Shown here: positions 1 through 3,794 of the stretch, piece by piece
How the letters are laid out: the number at the start of each line of letters is the position of its first letter
Position numbering within the stretch: position 1 is the stretch's first letter
IMG/VR virus record: IMGVR_UViG_2547132271_000007
From: a virus
Taxonomy: Duplodnaviria; Heunggongvirae; Uroviricota; Caudoviricetes
DNA: 5,601 bases
Reading direction: 5' to 3' (one strand)
Notes under the pieces: generated by a model
Databases searched by the model: none
The model's input: only the letters and a program-made list of their open reading frames with translations
Told to the model about the DNA's origin: nothing
Made by a program: the position numbers and the translations under genes

Positions 1-27
1 CATATCAGGAACTTGTTCGCACCTTCC

Positions 28-101
28 CTAGGAAATGATTTCCGATCTATTTAGGAAGTAACCTAGGAAGTGGTTTCCTACCTACTTAGGAAATGAGTTC
101 C
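28..101. repeat. Iteron-like array: three copies of a 16-bp imperfect palindrome YTAGGAARTGRTTTCC (28-43, 63-78, 86-101) plus a partial copy TTAGGAAGTAACC (51-63)
   Basis: Read directly. Copy 1 contains the perfect palindrome GGAAAT-G-ATTTCC; copies 2 and 3 differ at 2-3 positions. The window starts at position 1, so the array may continue upstream. Confidence 0.6.
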
Positions 102-104
102 ACC

Positions 105-168
105 AATACTATAATTAAATACTATAATTAAATAATATAAATAATATTCTTTATACTATATATATGAT
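105..168. repeat. AT-rich tract with a tandem 13-bp direct repeat ACTATAATTAAAT (108-120, 121-133); candidate DNA-unwinding element
   Basis: Read directly: almost pure A/T for about 60 bp immediately after the iteron-like array. Iterons next to an AT-rich tract is the classic origin architecture in plasmids and phages. Confidence 0.45.
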
Positions 169-180
169 CTTTTGCCTTCC

Positions 181-350
181 GGCGTTAGCTTCACTCTCTG
201 GCAAGCAGCCTTACTCCGCTACCTTTCGGGCTTCGTGGCTGGCCCGTTCCGCTCACACCGAAAGTAAAGCGTTACTTTCTTCGTGTAACTATCGTTGGCG
301 GTAACGCCCACGAAGAAATACTATTGCGCTGTGCGCAGAAGAGTAATCAC
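181..350. other. GC-rich, hairpin-dense block (candidate structured non-coding RNA or single-strand-origin-like element); strand unknown
   Basis: Local GC content is clearly above the AT-rich flanks. Hairpins seen: CGGGC(227-231)/GCCCG(242-246); TTTCTTCGTG(276-285)/CACGAAGAAA(309-318); TGCGC(326-330)/GCGCA(334-338). GCGTTA occurs at 182-187 and 269-274 with a single complement TAACGC at 302-307; CTTCGTG occurs at 231-237 and 279-285 with a single complement CACGAAG at 309-315. No ORF covers it. Confidence 0.35.
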
Positions 351-396
351 CTAACCAATCATACTGATTGCTTATGTGTAACTCTCTCTACCTCTT

Positions 397-448
397 AATT
401 CCACTTCCTACATTTAATAACTCTGTTATTCTCTGTAGTTGTGTAATT
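397..448. repeat. 52-bp direct repeat, copy 1, containing a nested bipartite palindrome CTACA-N3-AATAAC-N3-GTTATT-N3-TGTAG (408-438)
   Basis: Identical to copy 2 apart from a 1-bp indel. The inner and outer palindrome arms are exact reverse complements. Confidence 0.9.
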
Positions 449-474
449 ACTCGAAGAGAGAGCGGCTAAAGCTC

Positions 475-502
475 AATTACACTCTGCTTTCCTCGTGTAA
501 TT
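475..502. promoter_or_regulatory. Inverted repeat AATTACAC-N12-GTGTAATT between the two 52-bp repeats
   Basis: 8-bp arms are exact reverse complements. GTGTAATT is also the 3-prime end of both 52-bp repeats (441-448, 565-572), and GTGTAACT occurs at 283-290 and 376-383. Confidence 0.55.
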
Positions 503-519
503 TCACTAAGCCTCAATAC

Positions 520-572
520 AATTCCACTTCCTACATTTAATAACTCTCGTTATTCTCTGTAGTTGTGTAATT
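520..572. repeat. 53-bp direct repeat, copy 2 (one extra C versus copy 1), with nested palindrome CTACA(531-535)/AATAAC(539-544)/GTTATT(549-554)/TGTAG(558-562)
   Basis: Read directly; 123 bp downstream of copy 1. Confidence 0.9.
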
Positions 573-1096
573 GTTTTCGGTGGAAAAGCCAGAGGCGACA
601 CCGAAAGAGAATTCTGATCTTATTAATCTTATCTATCTTAGTTAATCTTCTTACTTATCTTACTTACTTTATCTACTTTATTATTAATAATAGCTTTATA
701 AGCTCTCTGTGTAGCTCTCTGACGCAAGAAACAGAGTTCAGGAAGGGAATCACCTTAGAAAAGTGTTCTTTGCGTCATAATGTGTTTTATGAAGGATTCA
801 GAGGTGTTTCATAACAGGAATGTATAGAGAATACTTTAGTTAATTAAAAATAAGGGGTCTAAATGCTTCTCTAACAGCATTAAGCAGGGTAGGGAATGGA
901 AACGCATTGCCTACATATAATAAACTCACTACAGGGCTTTACAGAGCGTTTTATAAAGTGACTCTCTATCTTATATCTACAATCACCTTTTCATATACCT
1001 AACAAATACAAAATAAGCCCCTTAAATAAGCCTCTGACGAGATAAATGGCCTCTACATAAGGGAATGTATTGCTTTTATCAAAACTTCGTTAGAAC

Positions 1097-1116
1097 GCGT
1101 TTTAGAGCGTTTTAGA
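1097..1116. repeat. Tandem 10-bp repeat GCGTTTTAGA x2; a related AGAGCGTTTTA copy lies at 943-953
   Basis: Read directly; about 100 bp upstream of the early promoter. Confidence 0.5.
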
Positions 1117-1208
1117 CAATAATGAAGAATAGCACTACACAGGAGAGCACGAATTGCTAAGAAAAAATGTAAGTGCATGAAAAAGATCAGATTTTTTATG
1201 AAAGGGTA

Positions 1209-1237
1209 TTGACAAATGTTTCTTTATATGTAATAAT
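1209..1237 (+). promoter_or_regulatory. Sigma-70/SigA-type promoter: TTGACA (1209-1214), 17-bp spacer, TG-extended -10 AATAAT (1232-1237)
   Basis: Perfect -35 hexamer, canonical spacing, TGn immediately upstream of the -10. Sits about 115 bp upstream of the first gene of the operon. Confidence 0.6.
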
Positions 1238-1350
1238 AGGTATTAGAGGGACAGAAAAACATTCTTCTCTAAATAATCAAAATCAATGCACTTTGAAGCC
1301 GTCAGGCTTGCAAGGTGTTTTATTTCTTTTAACTGAATAAGGAGTTTTTT

Positions 1351-1533
1351 ATGAAATGGTTTACACCGGAGCACGTCGTAGAGGCATTTAAAAAAGGTGA
1401 GCTAACACGCCATCAAGTAGTAATGAACCGTAATATGGCAAGGAGTCGAGGTTATCCAGAGCGAGCAGCTTGTTTCAATGAAGCACTCAAGATTATTGAT
1501 GAACTGCGTAAGAAAGAAGCAGAGAAAGAATAA
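1351..1533 (+). CDS. Hypothetical small protein, 60 aa
   Basis: AAGGAG at 1339-1344, 6 nt before the ATG. First ORF after the promoter. No family recognised. Confidence 0.6.
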   Translation: MKWFTPEHVVEAFKKGELTRHQVVMNRNMARSRGYPERAACFNEALKIIDELRKKEAEKE

Positions 1534-1556
1534 TAACAGGAGAAGGAGAAAACCAA

Positions 1557-1745
1557 ATGAATATTAATTTTGATTCTGCAACTTATAACGCGTTGTTAAA
1601 TCGCGCAAAGGCAGAAGGGAAATCAATTCCAAAACTTGTTAATGAACTACTAATTACAGTCCTTACAAAGGAGGAACTAAATGATCAAAAATATCAAAAC
1701 AATTGCCGAAGCGAAAGCCAAATGTCTAAATCAGAAAGATGGTAA
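1557..1745 (+). CDS. Ribbon-helix-helix (Arc/MetJ/CopG-like) DNA-binding protein, 62 aa
   Basis: AAGGAG at 1543-1548, 8 nt before the ATG. N-terminus INFDSATYNALLNRAKAEGKSIPKLVNELLITVL fits the strand-helix-helix pattern of this superfamily. The 3-prime 65 nt overlap the next gene in another frame, so the true C-terminus is uncertain. Confidence 0.6.
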   Translation: MNINFDSATYNALLNRAKAEGKSIPKLVNELLITVLTKEELNDQKYQNNCRSESQMSKSERW

Positions 1746-3453: not shown

Positions 3454-3458
3454 AAAAA

Positions 3459-3475
3459 GCAACAAAAAAGTTGTA
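3459..3475. promoter_or_regulatory. Operator-like palindrome GCAAC-N6-GTTGTA, copy 1, just upstream of the -35 element
   Basis: CAAC/GTTG arms are exact reverse complements. The same GCAAC-N6-GTTGTA unit recurs at 3742-3758. Confidence 0.4.
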
Positions 3476-3482
3476 AAATATC

Positions 3483-3511
3483 TTGACATTTCATATATTG
3501 TATGTTAATAT
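3483..3511 (+). promoter_or_regulatory. Strong sigma-70/SigA-type promoter: TTGACA (3483-3488), 17-bp spacer, TG-extended -10 TAATAT (3506-3511)
   Basis: Perfect -35, canonical spacing, TGT immediately upstream of the -10. Faces the downstream capsid-like genes. Confidence 0.65.
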
Positions 3512-3641
3512 AATTATATAGGGGTGATTATTTTTCCTTTATTGGTTCGATATTAAAAATTCTTCCTGTCATTAAAGGGGAGTAAAATCTCCGCTCCCCG
3601 CTTCTCCTCCTTAAGTAAATACTGTGCCATTATACCTCTTT

Positions 3642-3671
3642 GTTATGCATACATCTTGGAGTATGCATAAC
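3642..3671. promoter_or_regulatory. Inverted repeat GTTATGCATA-N10-TATGCATAAC in the leader; each arm contains the palindrome TATGCATA
   Basis: 10-bp arms are exact reverse complements. A related GTTATGCAAC occurs at 3737-3746. Could be an operator or an RNA hairpin. Confidence 0.5.
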
Positions 3672-3700
3672 ATAGGGTAATTACATAGGTATGAGTTAAT

Positions 3701-3732
3701 AAAAGGCGGCTTTAAATGCTGCCTTTTATTTT
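3701..3732 (+). terminator. Intrinsic terminator-like hairpin inside the leader: stem GGCGGC(3705-3710)/GCTGCC(3718-3723) with one G-U pair, 7-nt loop, U-tract 3724-3732
   Basis: An A-tract (3701-3704) upstream can extend the stem. Lies about 190 nt downstream of the predicted start site and about 60 nt upstream of the first downstream gene. Confidence 0.5.
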
Positions 3733-3741
3733 GCCCGTTAT

Positions 3742-3758
3742 GCAACTTAAAAGTTGTA
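3742..3758. promoter_or_regulatory. Operator-like palindrome GCAAC-N6-GTTGTA, copy 2, immediately after the leader terminator
   Basis: Same unit as 3459-3475, 283 bp away. Confidence 0.4.
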
Positions 3759-3794
3759 TTTCTTACTTTAAACAAGGTAACAAGGTTTATATAA

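What the first reader, a model, noticed from the sequence alone, without database searches (positions are those of the whole stretch)
181..350. GC-rich island with mutually exclusive pairings: candidate structured RNA or switch
The block stands out by base composition from its AT-rich surroundings, which in low-GC genomes often marks structured RNA. Two motifs are duplicated while their complements occur once (GCGTTA at 182-187 and 269-274 against TAACGC at 302-307; CTTCGTG at 231-237 and 279-285 against CACGAAG at 309-315). The complement strand can therefore pair with either upstream copy, giving two alternative folds, which is typical of RNA switches and of countertranscript-controlled elements. 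I could not match it to a tRNA, tmRNA, RNase P or any family I can recall, and the strand is undetermined. A single-strand-origin-type DNA hairpin set is an alternative.
Basis: seen in the sequence. Interest (0 to 1): 0.6.

Follow-up and report, generated by a model that had tools for sequence, protein, structure and literature searches.

The report
Hairpin-rich non-coding block beside satellite origin

Summary
In detail: the GC-rich block and all six motif copies are where stated. The window is an E. coli chromosomal island (integrase, small recombinase, O-like Rep, lambda-E-type capsid gene) whose contig starts at an IS5 end. Positions 29-101 are Rep iterons and 102-170 an AT-rich stretch with a GATC site. 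The island follows directly.

Related elements in Escherichia, Klebsiella, Enterobacter, Citrobacter, Cronobacter and Dryocola keep the order iterons, AT-rich stretch, structured block, although iteron and Rep types differ. The three-way junction at 276-318, the hairpin at 326-336 and the hairpin domain at 206-241 keep their pairing through compensatory changes. Further helices continue to about 596.

The proposed alternative pairings are not conserved: 18 of 40 window-type variants lack the upstream CTTCGTG copy, and no other type has these motifs. Rfam, tRNA, phage and plasmid searches found nothing.

Best reading: a selected single-strand structure tied to the origin, most likely an RNA (0.45). 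A single-stranded-DNA priming or helicase-loading signal is the main rival (0.27). Strand and chemistry remain unresolved, because the helices are almost purely Watson-Crick. It is an undescribed structured element of moderate to high interest.

The parts
1..27 (+). Right end of IS5, inserted at CTAG (28-31). This is context only: it truncates the iteron array and explains why the contig starts here.
   Evidence: Window 1-30 matches, in reverse orientation, the sequence next to an annotated IS5 transposase in L001 (annotation). Positions 1-38 hit many plasmids.
29..101 (.). Three copies of the iteron TAGGAAATGAKTTCC (29-43, 66-80 inverted, 87-101): the Rep-binding array of the origin.
   Evidence: D1, I6, I7. 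L085 carries 5 copies of the same repeat. Relatives have other iteron types in the same position.
102..170 (.). AT-rich stretch, the presumed DNA unwinding element, with two TATAAT words and a GATC at 166-169.
   Evidence: GC is 0.25. All relatives have an AT-rich stretch with 1-4 (A)GATC(A) sites between the iterons and the island.
171..205 (+). P1: TTTGCC (171-176) pairs with GGCAAG (200-205). In relatives it encloses hairpin P1a (GGCG n5 CGCC), which this sequence type lacks.
   Evidence: RNAalifold pairs. The T.G pair is fixed in 44 of 46 variants. Support is weak, because the pairs hardly vary.
206..241 (+). P2 hairpin domain: CAGCC (206-210) pairs with GGCTG (237-241); inner pairs are 213-214 / 235-236 and 216-218 / 227-229. 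It forms the near-invariant E. coli 'core' and behaves as a swappable cassette in other genera.
   Evidence: The closing stem covaries: CAGCC/GGCTG in E. coli, TGACC/GGTCA in Cronobacter L097, TGTCC/GGACA in Citrobacter L092 and Enterobacter L091. L089 and L091 differ by a clean 40-nt cassette swap.
245..256 (+). Conserved linker CGTTCCGCTCAC.
   Evidence: Kept in E. coli, Citrobacter, Enterobacter and Cronobacter; CCGCTCAC is also kept in L085.
276..318 (+). Three-way junction. P3 is 276-285 with 309-318. P3a is AAC (287-289) with GTT (294-296), loop TATC. P3b is GGCG (297-300) with CGCC (305-308), loop GTAA.
   Evidence: All three helices are kept with different sequences in at least 7 sequence types from 6 genera. 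Covariance model R1 finds it in every relative at 32-54 bits. Pair counts: 80% of cells paired against 26-46% with slid partners, and 35 double-change cells against 13.2 +/- 2.6 in shuffles, 0 of 500 as high.
326..336 (+). P5 hairpin GCGC-TGT-GCGC, nearly invariant in sequence.
   Evidence: It occurs twice in L085, which lacks the core. Most relatives have an extra covarying hairpin P4 just upstream (CGCC gtg GGCG, ACGCC cac GGCGT, ATGCC gta GGCAT) that the window lacks.
356..370 (+). P6 hairpin CAATCA-TAC-TGATTG.
   Evidence: The homologous position holds CATC taac GATG, CAAC tacc GTTG or ACAC tacc GTGT in relatives. It is Watson-Crick in 271 of 276 cells among 46 variants.
382..462 (+). P7 long-range helix CTCTCTCT (382-389) with AGAGAGAG (455-462). 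It encloses P8 (CTACA 408-412 with TGTAG 434-438) and P8a (AATAAC 416-421 with GTTATT 425-430).
   Evidence: Relatives have CTCTACCT...AGGTAGAG or CTGACT...AGTCAG at the same place, enclosing a hairpin.
464..512 (+). P9: GGCT (464-467) pairs with AGCC (509-512), closing a small domain.
   Evidence: Predicted on both strands in all 17 aligned sequences. The inner stem covaries: ACTGG/CCAGT, ACTG/CAGT, ACTT/AAGT.
520..572 (+). A 52-nt direct duplicate of 397-448, that is, a second copy of the P8/P8a hairpin (CTACA 531-535 with TGTAG 558-562; AATAAC 539-544 with GTTATT 549-554).
   Evidence: D3, D5. Most relatives lack 19 nt of it.
588..595 (+). GCCAGAGG, the window's version of the invariant TAAGTGCCAGAGGG block that ends the structured stretch.
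   Evidence: Invariant in 16 of 17 aligned sequences from six genera; L097 (Cronobacter) has GCCATAGG.
1209..1237 (+). Strong sigma-70 promoter (TTGACA, 17 nt, TG-AATAAT) of the rightward operon that includes rep. It marks the right limit of the non-coding region.
   Evidence: 11 of 12 matches. Equivalent promoters occur in L016, L091 and L087.

Best explanation
Shown: positions 171-350 are the origin-proximal domain of a structure-constrained non-coding module of about 430 nt (171-596 in the window; 400-500 nt in relatives). It lies between the iteron and AT-rich replication origin and the control region of the early operon, in an integrative, phage-satellite-like element of Enterobacterales.

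Inferred, and the mechanism I commit to: the module acts as a folded RNA transcribed across the border of the origin. The strand is not settled; + is modestly favoured by loop motifs. Its conserved scaffold (the three-way junction P3/P3a/P3b, then P5, P6, P7 and P9) positions a variable hairpin domain, P2 (206-241). P2 acts as a specificity determinant for a trans-acting host or helper-phage factor. The RNA thereby couples origin firing (R-loop, priming or helicase loading at the adjacent AT-rich stretch) or early-operon expression to that factor.

It is not a ligand- or antisense-driven two-state switch built on the duplicated motifs.
For: Context:
- The element carries an O-like/HTH_36 Rep, a lambda-E-type capsid gene and an integrase.
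- The order iterons, AT-rich stretch with GATC, then island is the same in every relative examined that keeps the island, about 20 of them.
- At least six iteron types and several Rep families go with the same structured block, so its function does not depend on Rep specificity.
- L090, which has acquired a different Rep, has lost the AT-rich stretch and the 5' half of the island together.

Structure under selection:
- Compensatory changes occur in P2, P3, P3a, P3b, P4, P6, P7, P9 and more distal helices.
- 2825 Watson-Crick cells stand against 21 mismatched cells (A.C plus other), plus 52 G.T cells of which 44 are one fixed pair, in 46 E. coli variants; polymorphisms fall in loops and junctions.
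- Block-wide MFE z-scores are negative in all 14 diverse sequences on the - strand, and in 12 of 14 clearly negative on the + strand.

Pointing to RNA rather than short DNA signals:
- The module is 400-500 nt long with multibranch junctions and long-range helices spanning 50-100 nt.
- P3b carries GNRA loops on the + strand in four unrelated stems: GTAA, GAAA, GTGA and GAGA.
- A.C-rich single-stranded linkers lie between the helices.

Specificity module: a 40-nt P2 cassette is swapped between two Enterobacter elements that are 96.5% identical, with identical flanks.
Against: - There is no direct evidence of transcription.
- No convincing sigma-70 promoter lies upstream on the + strand, and no intrinsic terminator lies at either end.
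- In relatives, hairpin P0 followed by a T-rich tail looks terminator-like on the + strand.
- The helices are almost purely Watson-Crick, with G.U at about 1-2% of cells. G.U on + against A.C on + is only 8 against 3 in each of two counts and 8 against 6 in a third. This is atypical for an RNA family.
- MFE z-scores favour the - strand in 13 of 14 sequences, contradicting the GNRA argument.
- One lineage (L089, L091) has the P3b loop flipped to TTC, and many E. coli variants have ATAA instead of GTAA.
- The island folds better against shuffles with DNA parameters than with RNA parameters.
- No in-cis complementary target was found for P2.
Confidence: 0.45

Rival explanations
1. Single-stranded-DNA initiation signals. 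When Rep melts the adjacent AT-rich stretch, one or both displaced strands of the island fold into hairpins. These recruit a primase or a helicase-loading primosome, from the host (PriA or DnaG type) or from the helper phage. This resembles RSF1010 ssiA/ssiB, the R1 G-site, or the ColE1 and phiX174 primosome assembly sites. P2 would be the primase-specific cassette.
For: - The island lies directly against the AT-rich stretch and is independent of Rep type.
- The satellite encodes no recognisable primase or helicase loader.
- Helices are nearly all Watson-Crick with no clear strand bias, as expected if G.T pairs are costly or both strands matter.
- z-scores are better with DNA parameters.
- There are no promoter or terminator boundaries.
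- GAA and GNRA-type loops also stabilise DNA mini-hairpins (my own knowledge).
Against: - Known ssi and PAS signals are 40-150 nt of local hairpins. Here 400-500 nt carry multibranch and long-range helices.
- There is no sequence similarity to any phage or plasmid record, including those that carry known ssi signals.
- The activity cannot be tested in silico.
Confidence: 0.27
2. A sense/antisense (countertranscript) pair. Both strands of the island are transcribed, and the complementary hairpins interact by loop-loop contacts to set copy number or immunity, as in ColE1 RNA I/RNA II or P4 CI/P1 c4. This is.
For: - Watson-Crick-only helices that fold on both strands are what selection on two complementary RNAs would give.
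- Weak promoter-like sites exist in both directions: on the - strand GTGAC(A/G), 17 nt, AAT(G/A)AT inside the P1a region, and on the + strand CTGATA, 17 nt, AATAAT at the last iteron of L091.
- P2 behaves like an incompatibility or immunity cassette.
Against: - The duplicated-motif pairings are not conserved.
- rep and its strong promoter lie 0.5-1 kb downstream, so the block is not in the rep leader.
- There is no Rfam hit to RNAI, CopA, C4 or ctRNA families.
- The promoter-like sites are at chance frequency.
Confidence: 0.1
3. An array of double-stranded-DNA protein-binding sites (recombinase res site, operators, packaging site), in which the palindromes are incidental.
For: - Several blocks are invariant in sequence: GCGCTGTGCGC, TAAGTGCCAGAGGG, CGTTCCGCTCAC.
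- A small recombinase gene and operator-like repeats lie in the same non-coding region.
- The element needs a packaging site and none has been identified.
Against: - Pairing is kept while the sequence changes in nested helices, including a three-way junction. Binding sites conserve sequence, not complementarity.
- The same slot holds serine or tyrosine recombinases, yet the island is unchanged.
- No phage in the collection shares the sequence, as a borrowed cos or pac site would.
Confidence: 0.1
4. A riboswitch-like or attenuator two-state RNA using the duplicated motifs, exactly.
For: In this window the competing pairings exist and are thermodynamically plausible.
Against: - The alternative partners are absent in 18 of 40 close variants and in all divergent types.
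- There is no aptamer family.
- No expression platform or gene lies immediately downstream.
Confidence: 0.04

Closest known systems
ColE1-type origin RNAs (RNA II primer with antisense RNA I)
   Same: A several-hundred-nucleotide, multi-hairpin, non-coding region physically tied to a replication origin. Its hairpins fold on both strands, and parts of it behave as specificity (incompatibility) determinants.
   Different: ColE1 has no Rep or iterons, and its RNA II promoter sits about 555 bp upstream and fires toward the origin. Here there is an iteron/Rep origin. Neither a promoter nor RNase H or Pol I dependence is shown. There is no Rfam RNAI hit and no sequence similarity.
Single-strand initiation signals: RSF1010 ssiA/ssiB, R1 G-site (G4 type), phiX174/ColE1 primosome assembly sites
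   Same: Hairpin-forming sequences placed next to the AT-rich part of an iteron origin, functioning independently of iteron sequence; Watson-Crick-dominated stems.
   Different: Known signals are 40-150 nt of local hairpins. This block is 400-500 nt with junctions and long-range helices. There is no sequence similarity, and activity is untested.
P4 CI RNA / P1-P7 c4 immunity RNAs (Rfam C4, RF01695)
   Same: The satellite has no obvious protein repressor.
   Different: There is no C4 match. The repeated segments are not conserved. The block lies upstream of, not inside, the transcript of the strong early promoter.
Iteron-type theta origins (lambda ori, P1 oriR, RK2 oriV with its G+C-rich segment)
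   Same: Iterons, an AT-rich stretch with GATC sites, and a neighbouring GC-rich segment, with an O-like initiator encoded in cis.
   Different: In those origins the GC-rich segment is short, and I know of no report that it is structured or covarying. Here it is the start of a long covarying hairpin array.

Membership tests
Any Rfam 15 family (including RNAI, CopA, C4, ctRNAs, riboswitches, large ncRNAs) | Covariance-model score at or near the family's gathering threshold | tested here: not met
   Permissive cmscan of window 1-1400 and of four relatives searched whole: best scores are 13.8-21.6 bits against thresholds of 35-93, E = 1.6-9.6, all implausible families.
tRNA / tmRNA | Cloverleaf or tmRNA model | tested here: not met
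   ARAGORN finds nothing in the window or in the non-coding regions of 8 relatives.
Riboswitch / two-state RNA switch | Mutually exclusive pairings conserved across homologues | tested here: not met
   The upstream CTTCGTG partner is absent in 18 of 40 window-type variants. All four motifs are absent in 11 divergent variants that keep P3.
Riboswitch / two-state RNA switch | Expression platform (terminator or RBS sequestration) and a regulated gene immediately downstream | tested here: not met
   No + strand terminator-like site in 1-1400 (the only site found is a weak one on the - strand, 337-325). The next gene starts at 1351, behind its own promoter at 1209-1237.
Structured non-coding nucleic acid under selection (generic) | Helices kept by compensatory changes beyond controls | tested here: met
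   Three-way junction: 80.2% of cells paired against 26-46% with slid partners; 35 double-change cells against 13.2 +/- 2.6 in shuffles (0 of 500 as high); 8 of 14 pairs have double changes. Further helices are covered. Caveat: the alignment was fitted to the model, and the window-type rows are partly out of register.
Iteron-type replication origin (the context of the island) | Tandem iterons, an adjacent AT-rich stretch and an initiator gene in cis | tested here: met
   Iterons at 29-101, with 5 copies in L085. GC is 0.25 over 101-200. Rep matches PF13730 and the PHROG replication-initiator families. Origin activity itself was not tested.
ssi / primosome assembly site | Supports primase- or PriA-dependent priming on single-stranded DNA | not testable with these tools
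   This needs an M13 single-strand-to-replicative-form assay or an in vitro priming assay.
ssi / primosome assembly site | Sequence relatedness to known signals (phiX174, G4, ColE1, R1, RSF1010) | tested here: not met
   blastn (word size 11) of the region against 50,697 phage and 72,556 plasmid records finds no match. Known PAS share little sequence, so this is weak evidence.
Rolling-circle single-strand origin (sso) | Partner rolling-circle Rep (HUH) and a double-strand origin on the same replicon | tested here: not met
   Rep is of the HTH_36/O-like or DUF6945 type and comes with iterons. No HUH or Rep_1/2/trans domain is seen in the ORFs.
ColE1-type RNA II / RNA I | Rep-independent origin with a primer promoter about 0.5 kb upstream and a complementary RNA I | tested here: inconclusive
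   An iteron/Rep origin is present, which argues against membership. Promoter-like sites on both strands are only at chance level. There is no RNAI hit.

The most novel reading that the evidence does not exclude
The 171-596 block, and its 400-500-nt counterparts, is a new class of large structured non-coding RNA specific to a widespread family of enterobacterial phage-satellite-like islands. On this reading it is physically fused to the replication origin, and its interchangeable P2 hairpin matches the satellite's replication or induction to a particular helper-phage or host factor. That would make it an RNA-level specificity cassette for satellite-helper pairing.
Probability: 0.3. Interest if true: 0.8.

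Novelty: new variant of a known kind. Interest (0 to 1): 0.6.

Why it matters
Relatives of this island family are found in about one in five complete E. coli genomes (1082 of 5426). This particular module is in about 8% (442 genomes). The family is also present in Klebsiella, Enterobacter, Citrobacter, Cronobacter and other genera. In APEC O1 it forms the thrW-proximal part of a catalogued pathogenicity island.

Neither the element nor its 1.5-2.6 kb non-coding region appears to have been described. A covariation-supported structured block of more than 400 nt, welded to a replication origin and carrying a swappable hairpin cassette, would be one of two things. It could be a new large ncRNA family, or an unusually elaborate single-strand origin signal.

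Either result would show how capsid-encoding satellites that lack their own primase, helicase loader and repressor start replication and choose helpers. The structure also gives concrete stems for compensatory mutagenesis.

Tried and rejected
- Rfam at permissive E-values on the window and on four relatives: nothing.
- ARAGORN: nothing.
- blastn of the island or of the homologous blocks against phages and plasmids: nothing beyond the IS5 end. So this is not a borrowed cos, pac or ori of a sequenced phage or plasmid.
- Copy number: one copy per genome and no core-genome homologue. So it is not a REP/ERIC-type repeat or a mimic of a host gene.
- Coding potential: ORF 164-304 is broken by indels in relatives. 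A 74-aa minus-strand ORF called in Citrobacter and K. aerogenes is not conserved.
- Long-range pairing of CACTCCTGGCA with TGCCAGAGGG, suggested by RNAalifold: rejected, because changes on either side are not compensated.
- In-cis antisense target for P2: only chance-level 9-10-mers.
- Strand inference from G.U against A.C counts, from MFE z-scores and from loop motifs: the results contradict each other.
- Literature searches for the sequence, for DUF6945 or DUF6538, for thrW with satellite, and for thrW with sRNA found no description. One review lists the APEC O1 thrW island.
- The genome-contig scan with the single capsid protein was largely wasted: it returned 1 locus.
- MAFFT alignments of the variable parts are imperfect. 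The covariance-model alignment puts window-type rows partly out of register, so the counts understate pairing for that group.

Full report
**What the window is**

The window is not from a low-GC organism. It is 94-96% identical over its full length to chromosomal islands of E. coli. Parts of it are found in 1082 of 5426 complete genomes, and at least 80% of it in 186.

In APEC O1 the element starts at tRNA-Thr (thrW) and ends at a tyrosine integrase about 12 kb away. A review lists that region as part of PAI-APECO1-thrW (PMC7545054).

Gene content:
- a few small ORFs;
- a 199-aa initiator with an HTH_36 domain that matches the PHROG 'replication initiation protein' and 'O-like' families;
- a lambda-E-type major capsid protein;
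- a tape-measure-like protein of about 610 aa;
- a Dit-like or 'baseplate' protein;
- the integrase.

There is no terminase, portal or tail tube gene, so the element looks like a phage satellite. Two short segments (1543-1709 and 1776-2036) are 96-99% identical to genes of 146-151 kb E. coli myoviruses. Window 1-27 is the right end of an IS5 inserted at a CTAG, which explains why the contig starts there.

**Check of the observation**

- GC is 0.51-0.55 over 151-300, against 0.25 just upstream and 0.33-0.41 downstream.
- All six motif occurrences are at the stated coordinates.
- GCGTTA is at chance frequency: 5 found, 2.08 expected.
- CTTCGTG is not: 5 found, 0.28 expected, 0 of 200 shuffles as high.
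- The strongest feature is the perfect 10-nt inverted repeat 276-285 / 309-318.
- The 46-codon ORF over the island is not conserved, since relatives carry single-base indels.
- RefSeq annotates nothing here in hundreds of genomes.

**Surroundings: a replication origin**

Positions 29-101 hold three copies of TAGGAAATGAKTTCC. A relative with the same repeat has five copies (L085).

Other relatives carry quite different repeat arrays in the same place:
- GATATACGGGAAAAACCCGTATGT, four copies;
- a 22-bp GGGGGTAGGTCAnnGTGAGCTA unit;
- CTGATACCCCTATCAA;
- TCTGTGACGnnnCGTCACAC;
- GGTGTCAATTTGGCAC;
- ACATCAAAATGATGT;
- GGGTAACAGAATTCTGT.

These are matched with different initiator proteins (HTH_36, DUF6945 and others).

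In all of them the array is followed by a 60-100-bp AT-rich stretch with one to four (A)GATC(A) sites, and then immediately by the homologue of the GC-rich island. This is the layout of an iteron-type origin. Because the island persists while iterons and Rep change, its role does not depend on Rep specificity.

One Enterobacter element that has taken up a different initiator (L090) has lost the AT-rich stretch and the 5' half of the island together.

**Relatives and conservation**

- The island (170-360) is present once per genome in 442 E. coli genomes at 95-99% identity. It is more conserved than its flanks and has no second copy or core-genome homologue.
- A metagenome scan with a 20-mer from the core gave 57 loci, including about 11 divergent E. 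coli variants.
- Capsid-protein homologues led to related elements in Klebsiella, Enterobacter, Citrobacter, Dryocola, Cronobacter, K. aerogenes, Serratia and Sodalis.
- All of these have a small recombinase, 1.5-2.6 kb of non-coding DNA, small ORFs and rep.
- A profile HMM of the E. coli non-coding block aligns over 400-600 nt to all but Serratia, Sodalis and L090.

**Structure**

Reading the aligned sequences shows stems that keep pairing while changing sequence.

The three-way junction at 276-318:

| Helix | Window | Other types |
|---|---|---|
| P3 | TTCGTG/CACGAA | GTGCAA/TTGCAC, TGTGCC/GGCACA, TCGTGC/GCACGA, TTGTGCA/TGCACAA |
| P3a | AAC/GTT | TGGC/GCCA, AGGC/GCCT, TAAC/GTTA, AGC/GCT, GGGC/GCCC |
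| P3b | GGCG/CGCC | CCGT/ACGG, TCGT/ACGA, GCGT/ACGC, TGAC/GTCA, CTGAC/GTCAG |

A covariance model of this junction finds it in every relative at 32-54 bits. On the resulting alignment:
- 80% of cells pair, against 26-46% when partners are slid by 1-3 columns;
- double-change cells number 35, against 13.2 +/- 2.6 in shuffles, with 0 of 500 shuffles as high.

The window-type rows are partly out of register in that alignment, so this understates the pairing.

Other helices:
- **P2 closing stem (206-210 / 237-241).** It is CAGCC/GGCTG in E. coli, TGACC/GGTCA in Cronobacter, and TGTCC/GGACA in Citrobacter and Enterobacter.
- **P5 (326-336).** GCGC-TGT-GCGC is almost invariant.
- **P4.** Most relatives have this extra covarying hairpin before P5: CGCC/GGCG, ACGCC/GGCGT or ATGCC/GGCAT.
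The same pattern continues with P6 (356-370), P7 (382-389 / 455-462) enclosing P8 and P8a, P9 (464-467 / 509-512), and a long composite helix ending at the invariant TAAGTGCCAGAGGG block, which is 588-595 in the window.

Among 46 distinct window-type sequences these helices give 2825 Watson-Crick cells, 52 G.T cells (44 of them one fixed pair), 3 A.C cells and 18 others. Indels and substitutions are concentrated in loops and junctions.

The whole block folds far better than dinucleotide shuffles in the window (z = -7.3 on +, -9.5 on -). Across the 14 sequences, z ranges from -2.4 to -9.5 on the - strand and from about 0 to -7.3 on the + strand.

**The switch idea**

- The upstream CTTCGTG (231-237) is replaced by CTACGTTG or CTTTGTG in 18 of 40 distinct window-type variants, although all 40 keep the 279-285 / 309-315 stem.
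- None of the motifs exists in the 11 divergent variants, which nevertheless keep P3.
- TAACGC at 302-307 is the loop and 3' arm of P3b.
- The other competing pairings in this window are peculiar to this sequence or broken by common indels. These are CTTTCGG/CCGAAAG and the 8-bp hairpin GAAAGTAA/TTACTTTC.

So the island is structured, but there is no comparative support for two conserved alternative folds.

**A cassette**

The 60-nt 'core' that is nearly invariant in E. coli (197-256) is replaced in other lineages by different hairpin domains inside the same flanks. Two Enterobacter elements that are 96.5% identical over 9.5 kb differ by a clean swap of about 40 nt inside P2, with 100% identical flanks. 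That is how immunity, incompatibility or recognition determinants behave. I found no complementary target for P2 within the elements.

**RNA or DNA, and which strand**

This is unresolved.

For RNA:
- the size of the block (400-500 nt);
- branched junctions and long-range helices;
- on the + strand, GNRA loops on P3b in four unrelated stems (GTAA, GAAA, GTGA, GAGA);
- more G.T than A.C exceptions on the + strand: 8 against 3 in two of three counts, 8 against 6 in the third.

Against a simple + strand RNA:
- no good promoter upstream and no terminators;
- a terminator-like P0 hairpin in relatives;
- the P3b loop is flipped or changed in some lineages;
- z-scores are more negative on the purine-rich - strand in 13 of 14 sequences;
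- G.U pairs make up only about 1-2% of cells;
- the island stands out more under DNA than under RNA energy parameters.

Watson-Crick-only stems are what one expects of DNA hairpins or of a sense/antisense transcript pair.

**Verdict**

With high confidence (about 0.85), the finding marks a real, selected single-strand structure that belongs to the origin region of a satellite-like island.

| Reading | Confidence |
|---|---|
| Origin-coupled structured RNA with a swappable specificity hairpin | 0.45 |
| Single-stranded-DNA priming or helicase-loading signal | 0.27 |
| Countertranscript pair | 0.10 |
| Double-stranded-DNA protein-binding sites | 0.10 |

It belongs to no described family. The nearest functional analogies are ColE1 RNA II/RNA I and the ssi signals of RSF1010, R1 and phiX174. 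I rate it a new variant of a known kind, with interest 0.6.

Noticed in passing
window 1-31: The terminal 27 nt of IS5 are followed by its CTAG target. The insertion cuts the iteron array and coincides with the contig end.
   Followed up: yes
window 1543-1709 and 1776-2036: These segments are 96-99% identical to 'hypothetical protein' genes of 146-151 kb E. coli myoviruses (muut, inny, Mt1B1_P17, BI-EHEC, PaulScherrer, Justusliebigvirus VEcB), while the rest of the window has no phage match. This suggests recent gene exchange and points to candidate helper phages.
   Followed up: no
L017 6088-6184; L055 3039-3090: A TPP riboswitch is annotated, and partly detected, inside related copies of the element, downstream of the replication genes.
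   Followed up: no
L001 10549-11088, L017 1843-2394 versus L016 4424-4984 and L086-L099: The slot to the left of the non-coding region holds a serine recombinase of about 180 aa in some elements and a tyrosine recombinase of 186-205 aa in others. This suggests a multimer-resolution or inversion function with an unidentified site.
   Followed up: no
L089 3724-3792 versus L091 3734-3798: There is a clean cassette swap of about 40 nt inside the P2 hairpin between two Enterobacter elements that are otherwise 96.5% identical. L089 also has a 5-nt deletion that destroys hairpin P0.
   Followed up: partly
window 397-448 and 520-572: A perfect 52-nt direct duplication carries a hairpin module (CTACA...TGTAG enclosing AATAAC...GTTATT). 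Most relatives lack 19 nt of the second copy.
   Followed up: partly
window 939-953, 1090-1104, 1100-1114: A repeated (A/T)NAGAGCGTTTTA motif lies upstream of the early promoter. Homologous AGAGCG-TTTAAA blocks occur in all relatives, so it is probably an operator for an unidentified regulator.
   Followed up: no
window 610-700 and 720-777: A pyrimidine-rich AT tract of CTTATCT-like repeats (GC 0.22) is absent from the compact relatives. It is followed by a hairpin with 14-nt arms (720-733 / 764-777).
   Followed up: no
window 3454-3794: A second non-coding gap lies before the head genes. It has a promoter-like TTGACA...TAATAT, a palindrome TTATGCATAC...GTATGCATAA and a terminator-like hairpin at about 3703-3730. 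It could hold a late promoter or the packaging site.
   Followed up: no
L016 5476-5495; L002 about 11633-11650: A conserved hairpin AACGAG-aaaa-CTCGTT lies about 300 nt left of the iterons. It scores as a terminator on the minus strand.
   Followed up: no
L002 9868-13470: In APEC O1 about 3.6 kb between tRNA-Thr and the first satellite ORF is almost entirely non-coding. An extra array of three 22-bp iterons (12135-12217) and a duplicated AT-rich stretch are inserted relative to the window.
   Followed up: partly
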